A stretch of 64,000 nt of DNA from an uncultured Gammaproteobacteria bacterium (GCA_963726665.1 CAVSDW010000012.1:323690-387689), one strand, 5' to 3'; numbered from the stretch's first letter, positions 9,107 through 16,817 are shown. The notes: generated from the letters alone by a model not told the origin. Made by a program: numbers and translations.

Positions 9107-10894
9107 CTAAGGCTCTCTGGTCAGCGCAATGAACTCCGGATCGCCGCGCAGGGAGTCGAGATCCGGGTCGTGCTTCATCCAGGCCAGGCTGCTGTAGCCC
9201 AGCGCCATCGCCTGCCGCAGCGCTTCCAGGCGCGCTGCTTCTCGCCGAGGACCGCGTACAGGCAGGCGCCGTTGTAGAACATCAGCGAATCGCCGGGGCT
9301 CAATTCGAGCGCAGTAGCCCCTTCCGCGATCGCCGCGCTCCGTCTGGCCGACTTCGGCAAGCGTGATCGCGTAGATCATCCTTGCCCGCGAATCGTCCGG
9401 GTTCTGGAGCAGGTAGTTGGGCATCATCCCCAGCACGTGCCGGGTCGTCGCCTGTTCCTCCGCCTTGCGCCCGAGCCCCGCGTACGCCTGCTCGAGATCG
9501 CAGTAGGCCACATAAACCCGGGCTTGATCTCGATGACGCGCTGAAACAGCGCCAGCGCCTCGGCGAAATTGCCGCTCGAGAACTGGATCCGCCCGAGGGT
9601 CCAGCACGCGATGAAGTCTTCGGGGTCGAGGTCGATGGCCTTCCTGCCCGATGCGGCAGCCTCGTCGAACTTGCCCCAGATGAAGTACGACAGGCCATTG
9701 CCGTGTAGGCCTCGGCCAGGTTGCCGTCGTACATCAGGGCCTTGAAGCTGAATTCCTGGGCCTTGTCCCGGTACTTCTCCTCGCGCGAGAACCACTGGTA
9801 CATCTGCCCGTAGGCGCACGAGCATCCCGCATAGGCGGCCGCGTAACGCGGGTCGAGCTCGATGGCCTTCTCGAACAGCTGCACCGCGTATTCGGTGCCG
9901 CGCTTGCTCATGCCGGTACAGGTAGTCCTGGCCGCGCAGGTACAGGTCGTAGGCCTGCGCGTTGACGGTCTGGCGCTTGGTGAGCGAACCTTCTCGGACA
10001 TGCTGAGCTTGAGCCTGAGCGCCTCGACGATCTGCTCGGCCACCTGCTCCTGGATGTCGAAGATGTCGTCGAGTTCGCCCTTGTAGGTATTGCCCCAGAG
10101 CTGGCGGTTCGTCGCCACGTCCACGAGCTGCACCGTGATGCGTACCGACTCCTGGAACCGGCGCACGCTGCCGCCGACGATGTAGCGCGCGCCGAGCTCG
10201 TTGCCGATGCCGCGGATGTCCTGCACGCGCCCCTTGTACTGCATCGACGCCCAGCGCGAGACGAGTTCGATCCCGCTCACGAGCGAGAGCCGCGCGATCA
10301 GCTCCTCGGTCAGCCCGTCGCTGAAGTAGTCGGTCTCCTGGTCGGGGCTGATGTTGTCGAAGGGCAGCACGGCGACCGCACCCGACGTCGCCTGGTCTCG
10401 GCGCCCTGGGTGCCTTGCGCTCCGGCCGGCAGGCCCGCGGCTTCCTCACCGCAGCGCCCGGCTCGTGCTCCGGCTGGCTGCGCGATGGTCACGCCCGCCC
10501 GCTCGAGCGAGCGCAGGATGGTCTTCAGGTTCTCTTCGTGATCGCCGTCGAAGTACTCGATGTGCTGGATGCCGGCCAGCGCGTACTTGAGGCCGGGCGG
10601 CATGTGGTCGGCTCGAGTCGACGGGCAGGATGTGTCCCTTGCGCTCGCTCACGAGCACCACTTCCTTGGCGACGTTGTGCGAGCGGGCGGCCGACTCGAG
10701 CTCACCACCAGCAACAGCACCTTCGCCTGGTCGAGCGCGTTGACGATCTCCTCGCCCCACAGCGTCGCGCCGTCGATCCCGCCCTGGTCGATCCAGACCG
10801 ACACCCCGGCCGCTCGCAGCCTCGAGGCAAGCTCGTGCACGCGATCCTGGTCATCGCGGGAATAGCTGATGAAGACGTCTGCCGGACTGGCCAT
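9107..10894 (-). pseudogene. TIR domain / TolB_N-like / TPR-repeat protein, disrupted by about 9 frameshifts
   Basis: The protein is readable only by hopping frames. TIR: MASPADVFISYSRDDQDRVHELASRLRAAGVSVWIDQGGI..G..WGEEIVNALDQAKVLLLVVS | AARSHNVAKEVVLVSERKGHILPV | MPPGLKYALAGIQHIEYFDGDHEENLKTILRSLERAG. TolB_N-like: AVLPFDNISPDQETDYFSDGLTEELIARLS...ARYIVGGSVRR...RITVQLVDV. TPR blocks: SLTKRQTVNAQAYDLYLRGQDYLYR | SKRGTEYAVQLFEKAIELDPRYAAAYAG... | GLSYFIWGKFDEAAASGRKAIDLDPEDF...IEIKPGF | VYVAYCDLEQAYAGLGRKAEE...LAEVGQTE | SAAIAEGATALELSPGDSLMFYNGACLYAVLGEKQ | EAARLEALRQAMALGYSSLAWMKHDPDLDSLRGDPEFIALTREP. Frame switches lie near 10694, 10618, 10385-10475, 9992, 9910, 9696, 9515, 9338 and 9238. 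Confidence 0.8.
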
Positions 10895-12589: not shown

Positions 12590-14065
12590 GTGAACAGACT
12601 GACCGCAATAGGCTTCGTCGCGCTCGGCGCCGTCGCACTCGCCGTGGTGGTGCTCGTGGTCCGCACCGTGGCCTTCGAACCTCCGGCAGCACACGACTTC
12701 GCATCCGTGCAGCTGGCCGAGGCCCCGCGCGTGGACGTCCCGCAGGCGGCCCGGCACCTCGCCGAGGCCATTCGCTTCCGCACCGTCAGCCACCAGGACC
12801 CCGCCAACAACGACTGGGCCGAATGGGACCGGTTCGATGCCTGGCTGACCGCCACCTACCCTGCCGCGCACGCGGTGATGACCCGCGAGATCGCCGCGGA
12901 CCACACGCTCGTCTACACCTGGCAGGGCGCAGACAGGACGCTGGCCCCCGTCGTGCTCATGGCGCATCACGACGTCGTACCGGTCACGGAGGGTACGGAG
13001 GGCGACTGGAAGCACCCGCCGTTCGACGGCGTGGTCGCCGAGGATGCCGTCTGGGGACGCGGCTCCGTCGACGACAAGGGCTCGCTCATCGCAATTTTCG
13101 AGGCCGTGGAAGCCCTGGAAAACTCAGGATTCCGGCCTCGGCGCACAGTGATCGTGCTGAGCGGCCACGACGAGGAGGCAGGCGGCGCGGGCGTACGGGC
13201 CGTCGCCGCATCGTGGCGGTCGCGCAGCCTCGCGCCATCGTTCGCGCTCGACGAGGGCCTCGCCGTGGTCTCGGACCTGCCGCTCGTCGGCCGCCCGGTC
13301 GCGCTCATAGGGGTCGCCGAGAAGGGCTACGCGACGCTGCGCATCGTCGCGCCCGCGAAGGGCGGCCACTCCTCCGCTCCGCCGCCCGAGACCGGCGTCG
13401 AGGTGCTCGCCAAGGCAGTGCTCGCCGTCGCGTCGCGCCCGTTCCCGATGCGCTTCAGCGGGCCGGCGGCCGACATGATCCGCACGCTCGCACCCGAGGC
13501 CGGGCTCGGCGTACACGTGGCGGTCGCCAACACCTGGCTGCTCGAGCCGCTGCTGATCGCGAAGATCTCGGCCACGCCCGCGGGCGCGGCGTCGCTGCAC
13601 ACCACCATCGCGCCGACCATGCTGCGCGGCAGCCCCAAGGAAAACGTGCTGCCCCAGGACGCGACCGCGTGGATCAACTACCGCATCGCGCCGCAGGACA
13701 CGGCAGCGCAGGTGATGGCGCGCGCGGAAACCGCGACGCGCAGGCTCGACGTCCAGCTCGCGTGGGAAGGCCCCGCCTACGATCCATCGCCCGTGTCGTC
13801 CACCGATTCGGACGCTTACCGCATCATCGGCGCCCTCGTCTCCGACGGCGGGCGCGTGCCCGTGGCACCGGGGCTCGTCACCGCGACGACCGACAGCCGC
13901 TACCTCGCGGGTATCGCGCAGCAGGTGTACCGTTTCCAGCCGATCGTCGCGTCACTGCGCGATTTCGAGATGATCCACGGCACCAACGAACACCTGACGC
14001 TGGACAATCTCCGGCGCATGACGGACTTCTACTCCGGGCTGATTGCAACCTCCGCGTCGCGGTGA
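12590..14065 (+). CDS. M20 family metallopeptidase (carboxypeptidase-like) with N-terminal membrane anchor
   Basis: N-terminal TM helix IGFVALGAVALAVVVLVV. M20 metal ligand motifs LMAHHDVVPV, WGRGSVDDKGS, SGHDEEAGG and a C-terminal IHGTNE. GTG start. Confidence 0.85.
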   Translation: MNRLTAIGFVALGAVALAVVVLVVRTVAFEPPAAHDFASVQLAEAPRVDVPQAARHLAEAIRFRTVSHQDPANNDWAEWDRFDAWLTATYPAAHAVMTREIAADHTLVYTWQGADRTLAPVVLMAHHDVVPVTEGTEGDWKHPPFDGVVAEDAVWGRGSVDDKGSLIAIFEAVEALENSGFRPRRTVIVLSGHDEEAGGAGVRAVAASWRSRSLAPSFALDEGLAVVSDLPLVGRPVALIGVAEKGYATLRIVAPAKGGHSSAPPPETGVEVLAKAVLAVASRPFPMRFSGPAADMIRTLAPEAGLGVHVAVANTWLLEPLLIAKISATPAGAASLHTTIAPTMLRGSPKENVLPQDATAWINYRIAPQDTAAQVMARAETATRRLDVQLAWEGPAYDPSPVSSTDSDAYRIIGALVSDGGRVPVAPGLVTATTDSRYLAGIAQQVYRFQPIVASLRDFEMIHGTNEHLTLDNLRRMTDFYSGLIATSASR

Positions 14066-14116: not shown

Positions 14117-15919
14117 TCAGCCCAGGCGGACGATGTCCTCCTGGGCCACGGACCGCTCGCGATGCATCAGGATCCACTGCGCATGCTCCTCGAGCGCCGC
14201 ATCGCCCAGCGCCTTCAAGGTCCCGCGTCGCTTCGCGTCGTCGTCGGCTTCGTCGATGCGGCGCCTGGCGTTGTAGAAGATCCGGCCCATGAACTCGAAC
14301 TGCTTGATGAGTTCGGCCTCGGCCGTGGCCTTGGCATAAGACTGCCGCACGCCCACCGCGAGCAGCACGCACCCCATGACGTATACGAGCGGTGAACGCA
14401 CGACTTCGGGCACGCCGGCGCCGACGAACATCAGCACCGCCAGCGTCGCGGTACTGGCCCAGATTCCCGCGCGCCCGATGCGGCTGGTCAGGGCGCGCTT
14501 GCGCACCCGCTCGGCGGTCCTGCGCAGGAAGTACCCGAGCTGCCCGGATCGTTCGTCGCCGATCCACTCGTCCACTGCGAACCGGAGCCCCGCCGGGTCC
14601 GCGCCCTTGCGTGCGTCGTACTCCGTGCCCGCCACGCGCATCACGTTGCGGATCCAGCCGAGCTCAGGGTCCTGCATCTGCAGGAAGTTGTCGTGGGCGA
14701 ACTTGGTGAGGCTGCCGCTCGTCACGCCGGCCGCGGCCCAGTAGAACTGGACCCGAAGTCCCTCGGCCAGCGTGCGGTAGTCGAGGTACTTCCGGTGCCA
14801 CGCGCCCTTTCCCGCCAGTCGATTGATGCCGGTCGCAGCCAGCATGAGCCCCAGCACGAAGAACAGGAACAGTCTCGTCGTGTTGAAATCCGTGTAGGAC
14901 ATGTAGGCGAGGCCGGTCAGGAATACGCAGGTGTGGCTCACCCGCAGGGTCAGCAGGAAGCGCTTCTGGAAGTGGACCGCGAGCCAGTCTGCAGCGCAGA
15001 ACACGCGGTTGATGTCGGAGAGCCCCGCCGGCAGGCTCGCGGCCTGCGCATCCGTGAGCAGCGGATAGCACCCTTGCTCGATCTCGCCCGAGTGCAGCGC
15101 CGCATCGCGGCCGAACTCGCTCGACCGCTCGAACACGCGCCGGTAGCGCGCCGGCATTTTGTCGGTACGCGGGTTGTCCTCGTCGGTCGTGAACCATGTG
15201 ACCGCGAGCGGCTCGAAACCCTCGGCGGGCGCGCCGTCGGGCCGATCGCGCGAACAGACGATGTGATACACGAGGTCGCTCTCGTCGTCGGTGAGCGCGA
15301 GGCGGCTGGCGGAACTCTGGCCAGCGTAGCCCGGCATCACGTCGCGGTGATGGAAATGCACGACCTGGCTCGTGCCACCGACCTGCGCGGACGGCTTGCC
15401 GTCCCACAGCGCGAGGAGGATGTGACAGTGCGCGCAGAGAAAGACGCCGCACTGCGCGTACTGGGCCTGGCGATTCACCTGCGACCCGTCGGCCGGCACG
15501 ACTCCGGCGGACGCGACCAGCGACAACTCGAACACGTCGGCCGCAGCGGCGCACAGTCGATCGAATTCGGCACGCGATCCTGGCGTGGCGAAATCCTGGG
15601 CGTAGAAATCCCTGGGCATCGGAAGCACCGCCACCAGCGGTATGCCGATGTCGAGCGCCTCCTCGGCGACCAGCCGGTCGGCGCCTTCGGCCAGCGCGGA
15701 CATCATCATGATCGCGCGGTCCGGATAGGCGTCTCGCAGCCCCACGATGAGGTCCCTGACGCGCGCGCGTATCGCGGGAATTTCAGCCGGCAGCAGGTCG
15801 CGGTGCCCGGTGGCGGCCACGACCAGCGGCACTGCGAACACCGCTCTCGCACCGGCGCCCCGCGTCCCCGACCAGGGATCGAAGCTCGTCGCGGCCGTTT
15901 GATCACCGTTGGCAGTCAT
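14117..15919 (-). CDS. SLOG-like (YpsA/DprA-type) domain protein fused to two 2-TM (SLATT-like) modules; function unknown
   Basis: 600 aa. N-terminal residues 27-195: VFAVPLVVAATGHRDL...IMMMSALAEGADRLVAEEALDIGIPLVAVLPMPRDFY...HILLALWDGKPSAQVGGTSQVV, the pattern seen in YpsA/DprA/LOG Rossmannoid folds. Hydrophobic hairpins sit at about aa 328-368 (CVFLTGLAYMSY / LFLFFVLGLMLAATGI) and aa 485-524 (GIWASTATLAVLMFVGAGV / LVYVMGCVLLAVGV). Each hairpin is followed by a basic amphipathic helix. Confidence 0.6.
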   Translation of the reverse strand: MTANGDQTAATSFDPWSGTRGAGARAVFAVPLVVAATGHRDLLPAEIPAIRARVRDLIVGLRDAYPDRAIMMMSALAEGADRLVAEEALDIGIPLVAVLPMPRDFYAQDFATPGSRAEFDRLCAAAADVFELSLVASAGVVPADGSQVNRQAQYAQCGVFLCAHCHILLALWDGKPSAQVGGTSQVVHFHHRDVMPGYAGQSSASRLALTDDESDLVYHIVCSRDRPDGAPAEGFEPLAVTWFTTDEDNPRTDKMPARYRRVFERSSEFGRDAALHSGEIEQGCYPLLTDAQAASLPAGLSDINRVFCAADWLAVHFQKRFLLTLRVSHTCVFLTGLAYMSYTDFNTTRLFLFFVLGLMLAATGINRLAGKGAWHRKYLDYRTLAEGLRVQFYWAAAGVTSGSLTKFAHDNFLQMQDPELGWIRNVMRVAGTEYDARKGADPAGLRFAVDEWIGDERSGQLGYFLRRTAERVRKRALTSRIGRAGIWASTATLAVLMFVGAGVPEVVRSPLVYVMGCVLLAVGVRQSYAKATAEAELIKQFEFMGRIFYNARRRIDEADDDAKRRGTLKALGDAALEEHAQWILMHRERSVAQEDIVRLG

Positions 15920-16139
15920 GCGCTGGCGACCATACTGGAACGCTGCGGCCGATGCACCTCGCCCCCTCGCGCGCCAGGACTCACGGTCGGGCAGGCGTCA
16001 TGGTCTTGCGGCGCAAGAACGCCCTCCGGAGCGTCGTAGACCGCGACCCATGTCGCAGGCTCGGCATGCCGCGGGGCGACACCGGTTGCGAGCCGGGATC
16101 CGGTACTACACTGGACGTGGAAACACGACTGGATGGGAC

Positions 16140-16817
16140 ATGAGCGCAGCGCACAAGCGGATCGCCGAACTCCTCGATCGCTGGCAGGCGAGCGTCGAAC
16201 TGCACTCGCGCTACCTCGACCTGGACGACGCGGCCTATGCGAAAGTGCAGGACTGGCCGCAGCACCGGCGTCCCACGCGCTGGATCGTGGACCTGGCGCG
16301 ATCACGCCTGCAGGACCTGAAGCGCCAGCTCGCGGATCGCCAGGCGCAGGGCGACGACGGCTACGCGGAATCGCTGGAGCTCATGAGCTTCCTCACGACG
16401 CTGCTCGGATCCGAGCACATCGATCGATACATTCCGCTGGCCTCTGCGGCGGCGGCCGTGAGCGCGCCGTCCGCAGCGGGAACCGCCTCCGCGGGCGGCG
16501 AGAAGCGCGCAGGCACTGACGCGGCAACGATACGACCTCGCCCCTCCGTCGAGCCGAGCGGCGCGAAACCGCGCCCGGCCCGGGCCCCGTCCACCGCCGC
16601 AAAACCGGCGAAGGCGGAAAAGCCGCCCAAGCCGGACAAGGCCGCCGCAACCGTGATCGCCGACGCCGCGCGCCTGCTTTCGTGGGGCCGCGAATGGCCG
16701 CAGCTCGCGGGCTTGATCGCCCGCCTCGCCGACCGGCCGTCGGAGCAGGAAGTGTGGGCCATCCTGCGGACCCACCGCGCTGCCATCGAAGCCCGCGCCC
16801 GGCGCGTTCCAGACTGA
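16140..16817 (+). CDS. Hypothetical protein (two helical regions joined by an Ala/Pro/Lys-rich linker)
   Basis: MSAAHKRIAELLDRWQASVELHSRYLDLDDAAYAKV...; linker SAPSAAGTASAGGEKRAG...AKPRPARAPSTAAKPAKAEKPPKPDKAAA; C-terminal LLSWGREWPQLAGLIARLADRPSEQEVWAILRTH. No family recognised. Codon usage fits the frame. Confidence 0.5.
   Translation: MSAAHKRIAELLDRWQASVELHSRYLDLDDAAYAKVQDWPQHRRPTRWIVDLARSRLQDLKRQLADRQAQGDDGYAESLELMSFLTTLLGSEHIDRYIPLASAAAAVSAPSAAGTASAGGEKRAGTDAATIRPRPSVEPSGAKPRPARAPSTAAKPAKAEKPPKPDKAAATVIADAARLLSWGREWPQLAGLIARLADRPSEQEVWAILRTHRAAIEARARRVPD

What the first reader, a model, noticed from the sequence alone, without database searches (positions are those of the whole stretch)
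14117..15919. SLOG-like nucleotide-binding domain fused to two 2-TM hairpins: candidate ligand-gated membrane effector with no partner enzyme nearby
Residues ~27-195 of this 600-aa protein follow the SLOG (LOG/DprA/YpsA/ThsA C-terminal) Rossmannoid pattern: strand-Gly (VVAATGHRDL), a Gly/Asp helix cap (MSALAEGADRLVAEEALDIGIPLVAVLPMP) and a late GG(T/S) loop (LLALWDGKPSAQVGGTSQVV). The C-terminal half has four hydrophobic helices arranged as two hairpins (aa ~328-368 and ~485-524). Each hairpin is followed by a basic amphipathic helix (WHRKYLDYRTLAEGLRVQFYW; AEAELIKQFEFMGRIFYNARRRI), which resembles SLATT (SMODS- and SLOG-associating 2TM) modules. SLOG+SLATT fusions were predicted computationally (Burroughs, Aravind and colleagues, NAR 2015) to be nucleotide-triggered membrane-disrupting effectors of conflict systems. 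I know of no experimentally characterised protein with this doubled 2-TM layout. The gene stands alone here: it is convergent with an M20 peptidase, divergent from an orphan ORF, and has no cyclase or SMODS gene nearby.
Basis: partly seen in the sequence, partly recalled or inferred. Interest (0 to 1): 0.75.

Follow-up and report, generated by a model that had tools for sequence, protein, structure and literature searches.

The report
Orphaned SLOG–double-SLATT membrane effector gene
This gene encodes a membrane protein with a cytoplasmic nucleotide-sensor (SLOG) domain and two pairs of membrane helices; in related bacteria it sits beside a TIR signalling enzyme, but here that partner is gone and the nearest TIR gene is a dead pseudogene, so it is an orphaned member of a predicted but unproven class of TIR-signal effectors.

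Summary
Window 14117-15919 (-) is a real 600-aa gene. The AlphaFold2 model is confident (pLDDT 87.8), and its N-terminal domain matches only SLOG-fold structures: YpsA, ShosA, DprA, a LOG-like protein and TRPM. The two 2-TM hairpin modules match different SLATT-clan Pfam families across the protein family.

The claim of "no partner enzyme" is only locally true. Among 49 species-level relatives with full flanks, 33 have a TIR gene within 5 kb. Fifteen have it directly adjacent, usually as a TIR-TM-TPR protein. Often a secreted protein gene lies immediately upstream. In close relatives the same chromosomal slot holds secreted protein – this gene – TIR-TPR. The window lineage kept only the middle gene. 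A different TIR-TPR gene 3 kb away (9113-10894) is a multiply frameshifted pseudogene.

The orphan is still under housekeeping-like purifying selection (dN/dS 0.19-0.32).

Best reading: a receptor/effector for a TIR-made ADP-ribose-type nucleotide that perturbs the membrane. A December 2025 preprint lists "SLOG and 4TM" effectors next to TIRs as a putative Thoeris type, and two tested examples did not defend E. coli. I therefore file this as a new member of a known, unvalidated kind. Interest is moderate.

The parts
14117..15919 (-). Complete gene for the 600-aa SLOG + 2xSLATT membrane protein (stop codon 14117-14119)
   Evidence: ORF. Full-length homologues. AF2 pLDDT 87.8. dN/dS 0.19-0.32.
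15245..15838 (-). SLOG (YpsA/DprA-like Rossmannoid) domain, aa ~28-225. Family-conserved residues include G38-H39-R40, A77, G79, D81, W172-D173-G174 and G181-G182-T183.
   Evidence: Foldseek hits to 2nx2, 8zva, 3uqz, 4ljk, 1rcu and 2iz7. YAcAr in 13/49 and DNA_processg_A in 3/49 members. PADLOC ShosA at aa 68-102. Invariant columns.
15023..15244 (-). Linker subdomain, aa ~226-299: two short strands and three helices, confidently modelled, with no family assignment
   Evidence: AF2 secondary structure. No Pfam hit.
14585..15022 (-). SLATT module 1, aa ~300-445: long helix, TM1 323-343, TM2 349-369, then the family's most conserved motif WHRKYLDYRxLAEGLRVQFYW (R382, E386, R389 invariant)
   Evidence: DUF4231 in 24/30 and SLATT_3 in 24/30 members. 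Window protein SLATT_3 E=0.003-0.04. Hydropathy and charge. Helices.
14120..14584 (-). SLATT module 2, aa ~446-600: long helix, TM3 483-503, TM4 510-529, then two cytoplasmic helices (Q540, G572, E578, W582 invariant)
   Evidence: SLATT_1 in 20/30 members, best E 4.7e-7. No hit for the window sequence itself. Hydropathy.
9113..10894 (-). Pseudogene of a TIR_2 - TolB_N-like - TPR protein (orthologue of the intact 595-aa gene L001:13490-15277). This is the nearest TIR gene to the SLOG-SLATT gene in this window.
   Evidence: tblastn HSPs fall in three frames. About 10 frame-disrupting indels against three orthologues, not in long homopolymers. The other syntenic genes checked each match as one HSP in one frame; a wider survey using crude stop-to-stop ORFs also gave some multi-frame rows that I attribute to antisense or merged ORFs. 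Pfam TIR_2 on the orthologue, E 1.9e-20.
16140..16817 (+). Divergently transcribed conserved hypothetical gene (~225-244 aa, no Pfam family). It is a syntenic neighbour, not demonstrably part of the system.
   Evidence: Orthologues in 15 loci, always in the same synteny block, and separated from the target by gene Xa where Xa is present. No Pfam hit.
12590..14065 (+). Convergent M20 peptidase gene. It marks the downstream edge of the slot that in relatives also holds the TIR-TM-TPR gene.

Best explanation
The gene encodes an inner-membrane protein. Its cytoplasmic YpsA/DprA-like SLOG domain is a small-nucleotide receptor. It is fused to two non-identical SLATT 2-TM modules that form the membrane-acting output.

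In the family's ancestral arrangement the gene works with a neighbouring membrane-anchored TIR-TM-TPR protein, and often with a secreted protein encoded immediately upstream. The proposed mechanism is as follows. The TIR domain converts NAD+ into an ADP-ribose-derived signal, such as a cADPR isomer. The SLOG domain binds that signal. Ligand binding drives a conformational change or oligomerisation of the SLATT helices, which makes the membrane permeable or gates an ion path. The result is growth arrest or death (Thoeris-like logic), or a membrane-potential signal.

In this window's lineage the flanking partner genes were deleted and the nearby, unrelated TIR-TPR gene has decayed. The protein is therefore an orphaned receptor/effector. 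Because it is still under strong purifying selection, it presumably responds to a signal made in trans.

Shown: gene reality, SLOG fold, SLATT-clan affinity of both modules at the family level, topology pattern, TIR and secreted-protein neighbourhood statistics, loss of partners here, and purifying selection.

Inferred: ligand identity, TIR as signal generator, membrane permeabilisation, and any role in phage defence.
For: SLOG fold: YpsA, ShosA, DprA, LOG-like, MoCo carrier, TRPM; plasmid relatives annotated DUF1273.

SLATT modules.

Topology.

TIR linkage: of 49 species-representative loci with at least 5 kb on both flanks, 33 have a TIR ORF within 5 kb, 31 of them on the same strand. Fifteen are directly adjacent, and 19 are adjacent or separated only by the secreted-protein gene. 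TIR ORF density is 63.5 per Mb within 5 kb against 3.7 per Mb at 5-10 kb.

The arrangement varies (target-TIR, TIR-target, TIR-X-target, X-target-TIR) across Steroidobacteraceae, Woeseiaceae, Pseudohongiella and others. This argues against simple inherited synteny.

A remote full-architecture relative on a Caballeronia plasmid is followed by TIR and WD40 genes. A Rhizobium plasmid carries TIR-caspase-SLOG-TIR.

Partner proteins are TIR_2/ThsB_TIR plus TPR. Representatives carry the Glu-containing motif at the expected place. Thirty-nine of 48 have a hydrophobic segment right after the TIR domain.

The same slot (hyp244...M20) holds Xa-target-TIR741 in L010, L013 and L014 but only the target in the window clade.

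Purifying selection: target dN/dS 0.19-0.32, M20 0.17-0.21, LptG 0.19-0.21. Protein divergence ratio to M20 is 1.0-1.5.

Literature: SLOG binds 3'cADPR in type I Thoeris. A SLATT effector (ThsH) responds to cADPR in type VII Thoeris. 'SLOG and 4TM' is listed as a putative effector next to TIRs. SLATT was predicted to be an ADPr-derivative-regulated permeability effector (PMC9503650).
Against: There is no intact TIR or other nucleotide-generating gene in the 64-kb window. The nearest one is a pseudogene of a different TIR family.

Eleven of 49 well-flanked relatives, and three more distant members (P0484, P0163, P0374), have neither a TIR nor gene X nearby and sit among metabolic genes.

The locus is core-genome (valS-holC-pepA/lptFG/cytochromes) and the gene evolves like a housekeeping gene. 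That is atypical for defence systems.

The family has no PADLOC model hit. No full-length copies occur on plasmids or phages in the collections searched.

The two 'SLOG and 4TM' systems tested in E. coli gave no defence. Their homology to this family was not verified.

The window protein's own SLATT scores are sub-threshold. No solved structure resembles the C-terminal half. No ligand, oligomer or membrane effect has been tested.
Confidence: 0.55

Rival explanations
1. This is a housekeeping or physiological signalling protein, not immunity. A vertically inherited nucleotide-gated membrane channel or sensor responds to an endogenous metabolite or second messenger, for example an NAD-derived or stress nucleotide. 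TIR-TM-TPR and the secreted protein are optional upstream envelope sensors.
For: Core-genome synteny is conserved across a family-level clade. dN/dS and divergence are equal to LptG and M20 even after loss of the neighbours. Many members stand alone among metabolic genes. The family is absent from PADLOC models and from phage and plasmid collections as a full-length protein. Partner TIR proteins have a TM segment that would place their TPR outside the cytoplasm, and gene X has a signal peptide. That fits envelope sensing better than cytoplasmic phage sensing.
Against: All experimentally understood bacterial TIR+SLOG or TIR+SLATT pairs are anti-phage systems. Plasmid-borne relatives sit with TIR/WD40 or TIR/caspase genes typical of conflict systems. 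No physiological pathway gene is consistently linked.
Confidence: 0.25
2. The SLOG domain is an enzyme, either a LOG-like N-glycosidase or another nucleotide-processing activity, tethered to the membrane by four helices. It degrades or generates a nucleotide rather than sensing one.
For: Some SLOG clades are enzymes, and SLOG domains have been proposed to cleave ADPr derivatives (PMC9503650). Polar residues are strictly conserved: H39 is invariant, and R40 and D81 are at least 90% conserved.
Against: The closest structural and sequence relatives are the non-LOG YpsA/DprA/ShosA clade. The LOG catalytic signature PGGxGTxxE, recalled from established knowledge of LOG enzymes, is not present. The window protein has VGGTSQVV with no Glu (sequence). 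The most conserved part of the protein is the cytoplasmic helix after TM2, which points to a coupled membrane output.
Confidence: 0.08
3. The roles are reversed. In the ancestral module the TIR is the NAD+-depleting effector, and the SLOG-SLATT protein is a membrane sensor or regulator. The orphan copy here would then be a sensor without its executioner.
For: [quoted passage not shown] TIR-TPR architectures often use the TIR as the effector (general knowledge, Kaur et al. 2020, listed but not read).
Against: SLOG domains in known systems receive TIR products. SLATT proteins are effectors in CBASS, DRT10 and type VII Thoeris. The TPR on the TIR protein already supplies a sensor module.
Confidence: 0.07
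4. The gene is a non-functional remnant decaying after loss of its partners.
For: Both flanking module genes are missing and the nearby TIR gene is a pseudogene.
Against: The 600-aa frame is intact. Every residue that is invariant in the family alignments is present. dN/dS is 0.19-0.32, the same as for essential neighbours. The orphan arrangement is shared by at least 6 related genomes at 69-82% identity, so it has been maintained for a long time.
Confidence: 0.05

Closest known systems
'SLOG and 4TM' (also '4TM SLOG') putative Thoeris effector class (bioRxiv 10.64898/2025.12.03.692087, Tables S1/S2)
   Same: The architecture label is the same: a SLOG domain plus four TM helices, encoded next to a TIR-domain gene, and proposed to be a TIR-signal-activated effector.
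   Different: Homology to this family could not be tested because the effector sequences are not held. The two tested systems (Streptomyces sp. GKU 895 and Ca. Nitrospira nitrosa) showed no defence in E. coli. The class was found by defence-island association, whereas this gene is core-genome and has no adjacent TIR. The partners here are TIR-TM-TPR plus a secreted protein.
SLOG + SLATT fusions predicted by Burroughs, Zhang, Schäffer, Iyer and Aravind (NAR 2015); SLATT_1/SLATT_3/DUF4231 Pfam families
   Same: A YpsA-like SLOG sensor fused to 2-TM SLATT modules, predicted to be nucleotide-regulated membrane-permeability effectors (as summarised in PMC9503650). Family members hit these Pfam models.
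   Different: This protein has two SLATT modules of different subfamilies in tandem (SLATT_3/DUF4231-like, then SLATT_1-like). They have no detectable similarity to each other. The window protein itself scores below the Pfam thresholds. The 2015 paper itself could not be read here.
Type VII Thoeris (ThsB TIR + ThsH SLATT effector; signal is canonical cADPR)
   Same: A TIR gene next to a SLATT membrane effector. The effector is thought to oligomerise in the membrane on ligand binding.
   Different: ThsH is described as a SLATT-only protein that binds ligand in pockets between SLATT protomers. Here a dedicated SLOG domain is fused and there are two SLATT modules. No TIR is adjacent in the window.
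Type I Thoeris ThsA (SIR2-SLOG), and type III Thoeris ThsD (SLOG effector with multiple TIRs)
   Same: A SLOG domain acts as the receiver of a TIR-made cADPR isomer.
   Different: The output domain is an NADase (SIR2), not membrane helices. Those systems are mobile defence-island systems. The SLOG here is closer to YpsA/DprA/ShosA in fold search.
Eukaryotic TRPM2-type channels (N-terminal SLOG-like MHR1/2 domain fused to a cation channel)
   Same: The concept is the same: a cytoplasmic SLOG domain gating a membrane pore. TRPM2, TRPM4 and TRPM8 appear among the Foldseek hits. That TRPM2 binds ADP-ribose in this domain is established knowledge and was not tested here.
   Different: The membrane domain is unrelated (a 6-TM tetrameric channel against two 2-TM hairpins). 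The Foldseek probabilities for the whole-chain TRPM alignments are low (0.10-0.38).

Membership tests
SLOG superfamily (YpsA/DprA-like clade) | Rossmannoid three-layer alpha/beta fold with a parallel sheet, matching solved SLOG structures | tested here: met
   AF2 model aa 32-221 shows alternating strands and helices. The Foldseek top seven hits are YpsA 2nx2, ShosA 8zva and DprA 3uqz, 4ljk and 5mll, all with probability 1.00. TM1055, the MoCo carrier protein and DprA 3maj follow.
SLOG superfamily (YpsA/DprA-like clade) | Conserved glycine/polar loop after strand 1, and a GG[ST] loop late in the domain | tested here: met
   In the family alignments H39 is invariant, and T37, G38 and R40 are each at least 90% conserved in at least one of them. 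G181 is invariant, and G182 and T183 are at least 90% conserved. G79 is invariant and D81 at least 90% conserved.
SLOG superfamily (YpsA/DprA-like clade) | Significant match to a curated SLOG sequence model | tested here: inconclusive
   The window protein has no Pfam SLOG hit, and its PADLOC ShosA hit is only E=0.004 over 35 residues. YAcAr hits 13/49 members (best E 5.5e-5) and DNA_processg_A hits 3/49. tblastn hits to plasmid proteins annotated DUF1273 show 29-37% identity.
LOG-type nucleotide N-glycosidases | PGGxGTxxE catalytic motif (from established knowledge of LOG enzymes) | tested here: not met
   The equivalent loop is Q-V-G-G-T-S-Q-V-V with no Glu (sequence). The family consensus is GGTxQVV.
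SLATT clan (SLATT_1-6, DUF4231) | 2-TM hairpin flanked by cytoplasmic helices | tested here: met
   There are two such units: helices 300-344/349-372/374-397 and 459-502/505-531/534-557/561-588. Hydropathy and charge distribution are conserved across 69 sequences.
SLATT clan (SLATT_1-6, DUF4231) | Match to the curated Pfam/NCBIfam SLATT models at gathering threshold | tested here: inconclusive
   For the window protein, SLATT_3 scores 14.7-18.3 bits (cut-off 26.3) and NCBIfam SLATT_3 scores 14.8 bits (cut-off 45). Module 2 has no hit. For the family, module 1 hits DUF4231 and SLATT_3 in 24/30 members each, and module 2 hits SLATT_1 in 20/30 with best E 4.7e-7. Some homologues carry precomputed PF18181 or PF14015 hits.
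SLATT clan (SLATT_1-6, DUF4231) | Genomic association with a nucleotide-signal generator (SMODS, TIR, RT) or fusion to SLOG | tested here: met
   The protein is fused to SLOG (above). A TIR lies within 5 kb in 33/49 relatives. This is not met by neighbourhood in the window itself.
Thoeris-type TIR signalling system | Intact TIR-domain gene in the same operon or adjacent | tested here: not met
   In the window the only TIR is a frameshifted pseudogene 3 kb away, beyond two unrelated genes. The feature is met in many relatives.
Thoeris-type TIR signalling system | Effector with a ligand-binding domain for the TIR product | tested here: inconclusive
   A SLOG domain is present. Ligand binding was not tested.
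Thoeris-type TIR signalling system | Defence-island or mobile context | tested here: not met
   Neighbours are valS, holC, pepA, lptF/G, cytochromes, an M20 peptidase and an amino-acid permease. PADLOC has no hit for the family. No full-length copy occurs on phages or plasmids, apart from a remote Caballeronia plasmid relative.
Thoeris-type TIR signalling system | Phage-triggered production of an ADPR-derived signal, and protection from phage | not testable with these tools
   This needs experiments. The only related data are negative: two 'SLOG and 4TM' systems tested in E. coli gave no defence.

The most novel reading that the evidence does not exclude
The family is the output of a previously undescribed envelope-spanning TIR signalling module. 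A secreted protein (lectin-like, Ig-like or of unknown fold) and a TIR-TM-TPR protein whose TPR array lies outside the cytoplasm would sense an extracytoplasmic event. The cytoplasmic TIR would make a nucleotide messenger. The SLOG-double-SLATT protein would turn that messenger into a membrane response. The system would be vertically inherited as part of the core genome of soil and sediment Gammaproteobacteria (Steroidobacteraceae, Woeseiaceae and relatives), and the receptor would stay useful after loss of its cis partners. That would make it a physiological TIR second-messenger pathway or a 'trans-wired' receptor, rather than a mobile abortive-infection cassette.
Probability: 0.2. Interest if true: 0.8.

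Novelty: new member of a known kind. Interest (0 to 1): 0.45.

Why it matters
If the mechanism holds, this large family would be a fourth way of reading TIR-made nucleotides: SLOG directly coupled to SLATT membrane helices. The family has thousands of clusters, mostly from uncultured soil and sediment Gammaproteobacteria.

It offers natural experiments for asking how an effector survives without its signal generator. Three-gene modules, two-gene modules and orphans can occupy the same chromosomal slot.

The housekeeping-like selection, the membrane-anchored TIR-TM-TPR partners and the signal-peptide-bearing neighbour hint that bacterial TIR signalling may also serve envelope sensing. That would broaden the present defence-only picture.

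For genome annotation, the practical result is a name for a very common 'hypothetical protein'. It also shows that the local absence of a partner can be a lineage-specific loss.

Tried and rejected
1. Internal duplication. hhalign of module 1 against module 2 profiles gave probability 0.2%. The two hairpins are not a detectable recent duplication; they match different SLATT subfamilies instead.

2. Sequence-profile search of the PDB with the family alignment found nothing meaningful.

3. Foldseek of the separately modelled C-terminal half (pLDDT 80.9) against the PDB gave only generic long-helix bundles (ABC transporter TMDs, designed proteins) with E >= 0.03 and TM <= 0.29. There is no solved structural relative.

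4. PADLOC gave no model for the SLOG-SLATT family, for gene X or for remote relatives.

5. The phage and plasmid collections gave only SLOG-domain-level matches. A Streptomyces plasmid hit is a stand-alone 164-aa SLOG protein, not the 4TM type.

6. The upstream divergent ORF as a partner: rejected. It tracks the synteny block, not the gene. Gene Xa lies between them where Xa is present, and the ORF has no Pfam family.

7. The M20 peptidase as a partner: rejected for the same reason. In L010, L013 and L014 it lies beyond the TIR gene.

8. The TIR-TolB-TPR (595-aa) gene as the cognate partner of the orphan clade: cannot be decided. It is syntenic in that clade and also present in L013 alongside the adjacent TIR741. 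It is dead in the window.

9. Assembly error as the cause of the TIR frameshifts: judged unlikely. There are about 10 indels in one 1.8-kb gene and none in the neighbouring genes compared directly. The wider survey was noisier because it used crude ORFs.

10. Burroughs et al. 2015 could not be retrieved. Statements about it rest on later papers and on my own knowledge.

Caveats. The TIR and X detection used ad hoc HMMs on stop-to-stop ORFs. The 80 loci are the best of at least 594 tblastn-confirmed matches, so they are biased towards relatives of at least 45% identity.
Full report
1. Is the feature real?

Window 14117-15919 (-) is a 600-aa ATG-initiated ORF. The window is about 69% G+C, so long chance ORFs are common, and real evidence of coding is needed. 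That evidence is strong.
- More than 3,000 homologues were found, most of them almost exactly 600 aa and 52-96% identical.
- An exhaustive HMMER search of 50%-identity representatives found 7,075 clusters with E <= 1e-3 and 941 with E <= 1e-30. The whole architecture (aa ~29-591) aligns down to about 27% identity.
- dN/dS against orthologues is 0.19-0.32.
- AlphaFold2 with a 69-sequence alignment gives pLDDT 87.8 and pTM 0.88.

2. Domain anatomy

N-terminal domain. Foldseek of the full model against the PDB returns, as its top hits, only SLOG-fold proteins:
- B. subtilis YpsA 2nx2 (E 6.8e-4, TM 0.64 on the target, probability 1.00)
- ShosA 8zva
- DprA 3uqz, 4ljk, 5mll and 3maj
- the LOG-like protein TM1055 (1rcu)
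- the MoCo carrier protein 2iz7
- TRPM2, TRPM4 and TRPM8, with low probability

Sequence models agree, but weakly. The window protein gives only PADLOC ShosA at E=0.004 over aa 68-102. YAcAr (a 'YpsA-related SLOG family') hits 13 of 49 diverse members and DNA_processg_A hits 3 of 49. tblastn against plasmids finds the domain at 29-37% identity in proteins annotated DUF1273, which is the YpsA family.

The conserved residues lie where SLOG ligand loops lie. H39 is invariant, with G38 and R40 at least 90% conserved. G79 is invariant, with A77 and D81 at least 90% conserved. W172, D173 and G174 are invariant or nearly so. G181 is invariant, with G182 and T183 at least 90% conserved. The LOG catalytic motif PGGxGTxxE is absent. 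The loop reads VGGTSQVV (the motif itself is from my own knowledge).

C-terminal half. There are four hydrophobic segments at about aa 323-343, 349-369, 483-503 and 510-529. Their mean hydropathy over 69 sequences is 1.4-1.8. They are joined pairwise by 5-6-residue acidic loops almost free of K/R, and flanked by K/R-rich segments. This gives an N-in topology, with both hairpins dipping into the membrane and everything else cytoplasmic.

AF2 models each unit as a very long helix, a return helix, and one or two further cytoplasmic helices. The units were scanned separately across 30 members each:
- Module 1 (aa 290-445) hits DUF4231 in 24/30 and SLATT_3 in 24/30.
- Module 2 (aa 446-600) hits SLATT_1 in 20/30, with best E 4.7e-7.

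The window protein itself stays below threshold: SLATT_3 at 14.7-18.3 bits against a cut-off of 26.3, and nothing for module 2.

The two modules show no profile-profile similarity to each other. The doubled layout is therefore a tandem of two different SLATT subtypes, not a recent duplication.

Neither the family profile nor a separate model of aa 286-600 (pLDDT 80.9) finds any related solved structure.

The most conserved stretch of the whole protein is the cytoplasmic helix right after TM2, WHRKYLDYRxLAEGLRVQFYW, with R382, E386 and R389 invariant.

3. Context in the window

The gene sits in a core-genome block:
- valS
- holC
- pepA
- lptF-lptG
- an RDD protein
- cytochrome b561
- cytochrome c'
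- a conserved hypothetical gene (16140-16817 +)
- this gene
- an M20 peptidase (convergent)
- an amino-acid permease
- a TIR-TPR gene

The same order is found in related metagenome-assembled Steroidobacteraceae-like genomes.

At 9113-10894 (-) lies the orthologue of an intact 595-aa TIR_2 - TolB_N-like - TPR protein (Pfam TIR_2 E 1.9e-20 on the L001 orthologue). In the window it is broken. tblastn HSPs fall in three frames. A DNA alignment with three orthologues shows seven 1-bp deletions, one 2-bp insertion and two 1-bp insertions, and none is in a long homopolymer. The six neighbouring genes compared directly each match as a single HSP in a single frame. I therefore read it as a true pseudogene rather than assembly noise.

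4. Context in relatives

I fetched 80 species-representative genome loci. Taxa include Steroidobacteraceae, Woeseiaceae, Pseudohongiella, Thioalkalivibrio and Wenzhouxiangellaceae. At least 594 matching stretches were confirmed by tblastn. I searched their six-frame ORFs with HMMs built from the neighbouring TIR domains.

Among the 49 loci with at least 5 kb on both sides:
- 33 have a TIR ORF within 5 kb, 31 of them on the same strand.
- 15 have it directly adjacent (gaps of -4 to about 200 bp).
- 19 have it adjacent or separated only by one particular gene, called X below.
- 11 have neither.

TIR ORF density is 63.5 per Mb within 5 kb against 3.7 per Mb at 5-10 kb.

The order differs between lineages: X-target-TIR, TIR-X-target, TIR-target and target-TIR. 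This argues for functional linkage rather than frozen synteny.

The partners are TIR_2/ThsB_TIR plus TPR proteins of several TPR types. Representatives of each type have the Glu-containing motif at the position of the TIR catalytic glutamate. Thirty-nine of 48 carry a hydrophobic 19-mer 10-30 residues after the TIR domain. That suggests TIR-TM-TPR(out), though the topology is inferred and not tested.

Gene X comes in at least three unrelated forms:
- about 830 aa, with no Pfam hit
- about 500 aa, with a weak C-type-lectin hit
- 642 aa, with Big_7

All have Sec-type signal peptides. X lies immediately upstream on the same strand in 15 of the 49 loci.

Remote relatives repeat the theme. A Caballeronia plasmid encodes a 577-aa 'DUF4231 domain-containing protein' that matches the family HMM across SLOG and SLATT (E 6.9e-48). 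It is followed by TIR and WD40 genes. A Rhizobium plasmid has TIR-caspase-DUF1273-TIR.

In the opposite direction, three distant members (28-42% identity) stand alone among metabolic genes.

5. What happened in this lineage

In L010, L013 and L014 (66-69% identity), the slot between the conserved hypothetical gene and the M20 peptidase contains Xa - target - TIR-TM-TPR. In the window and in L001, L008, L025, L061, L009 and L002/L011, the same slot contains only the target. The three-gene module occurs in differently arranged forms in distant lineages. The simplest history is therefore loss of both flanking genes here.

The orphan is nevertheless maintained. Its protein divergence tracks that of the M20 neighbour, with a ratio of 1.0-1.5. 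Its dN/dS of 0.19-0.32 equals that of M20 (0.17-0.21) and LptG (0.19-0.21). All residues invariant in the family alignments are retained.

6. Mechanism

The best-supported model is Thoeris-like. A TIR enzyme makes an ADP-ribose-derived messenger, the SLOG domain binds it, and the SLATT helices act on the membrane.

The precedents are these. SLOG receives 3'cADPR in type I Thoeris. A SLATT protein (ThsH) is the cADPR-activated effector in type VII Thoeris. SLATT effectors act in CBASS and DRT10. The Aravind group predicted SLATT as an ADPr-derivative-regulated permeability effector and YpsA-like SLOGs as cADPR sensors.

Everything downstream of the domain and neighbourhood evidence is inference. 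No ligand, oligomer or membrane effect has been measured for any member.

The features that do not fit a standard defence cassette keep a physiological-signalling rival alive at about 0.25. Those features are core-genome location, housekeeping-like selection, frequent stand-alone copies, absence from PADLOC, absence from phages and plasmids as a full-length protein, and partners that look like envelope sensors.

7. Comparison with what is known, and novelty

SLOG-SLATT fusions and TIR-SLOG/SLATT neighbourhoods were predicted computationally in 2015. I could not read that paper here.

A December 2025 preprint surveying TIR systems lists '4TM SLOG' or 'SLOG and 4TM' effectors among 29 putative Thoeris types. 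It reports two examples cloned in E. coli as not defensive. The authors note that unverified types may not be true signalling systems. I could not test whether those effectors are homologous to this family.

The kind is therefore known but unvalidated, and this gene is a new, orphaned member of it. Four things appear not to have been described:
- the tandem of two different SLATT subtypes
- the TIR-TM-TPR plus secreted-protein module
- Woeseiaceae variants with two SLOG domains
- the long-term vertical maintenance of orphan copies

Verdict. Novelty is 'new member of a known kind'. Interest is 0.45.

Noticed in passing
window 9113-10894 (-): The TIR_2 - TolB_N-like - TPR gene is a pseudogene. 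It has about 10 frame-disrupting indels relative to three intact orthologues, and its HSPs fall in three reading frames. The flanking genes compared directly are each a single HSP in a single frame.
   Followed up: yes
L003-L007 (Woeseiaceae, 835-844-aa homologues such as P0109 and P0094): These longer variants carry an extra N-terminal copy of the SLOG domain. Family HMM positions 7-252 match twice in tandem, giving SLOG-SLOG-SLATT-SLATT.
   Followed up: partly
L010, L012-L015, L017, L021, L028, L031 (X upstream, TIR downstream); L006, L036, L037, L043, L048, L050, L054, L065 (TIR-X-target): These loci share a conserved three-gene module: a signal-peptide-bearing protein X, the SLOG-2xSLATT gene, and a TIR-TM-TPR gene. 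X comes in three unrelated forms (~830 aa with no Pfam hit, ~500 aa with a weak C-type lectin hit, 642 aa with Big_7). Thirty-nine of 48 partner TIR proteins have a hydrophobic segment just after the TIR domain, which suggests an extracytoplasmic TPR.
   Followed up: partly
L033, L034, L038, L060 (e.g. L034:6319-8655 and L034:4427-5719): A 779-aa protein sits immediately upstream of the family gene in L034 (SLATT_1 hit of 26.8 bits, and a C-terminal alpha/beta-hydrolase-like region with GHSAGG); a four-locus ORF cluster of ~780-aa proteins that includes it was not checked locus by locus. A short TIR_2-TM protein lies further upstream in all four loci. This may be a multi-effector TIR locus.
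   Followed up: partly
L039, L040, L042, L049, L055, L066, L072: Gene Xb lies directly upstream of the family gene, but no TIR is detected within the available flank. The secreted-protein link can therefore exist without a local TIR.
   Followed up: no
window 16140-16817 (+): This conserved hypothetical protein (about 225 aa here, 233-244 aa in relatives) has a helical N-terminal part, an Ala/Pro/Lys-rich low-complexity middle, and no Pfam family. It is syntenic in 15 related loci. The longest ORF call (15909-16817, TTG start) overextends it.
   Followed up: partly
L061:10082-11783, and the TIR fragment at L061:13526-13981: In this long-contig MAG, the family gene itself is split over two frames and the TIR-TPR orthologue is truncated to 152 aa. 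This could be sequencing error or parallel decay. It is a caution for pseudogene calls in such assemblies.
   Followed up: no
L052 and L056 (both from Woeseia sp. SS_bin_42): Two paralogous copies of the family occur in one MAG, so some genomes carry more than one copy.
   Followed up: no
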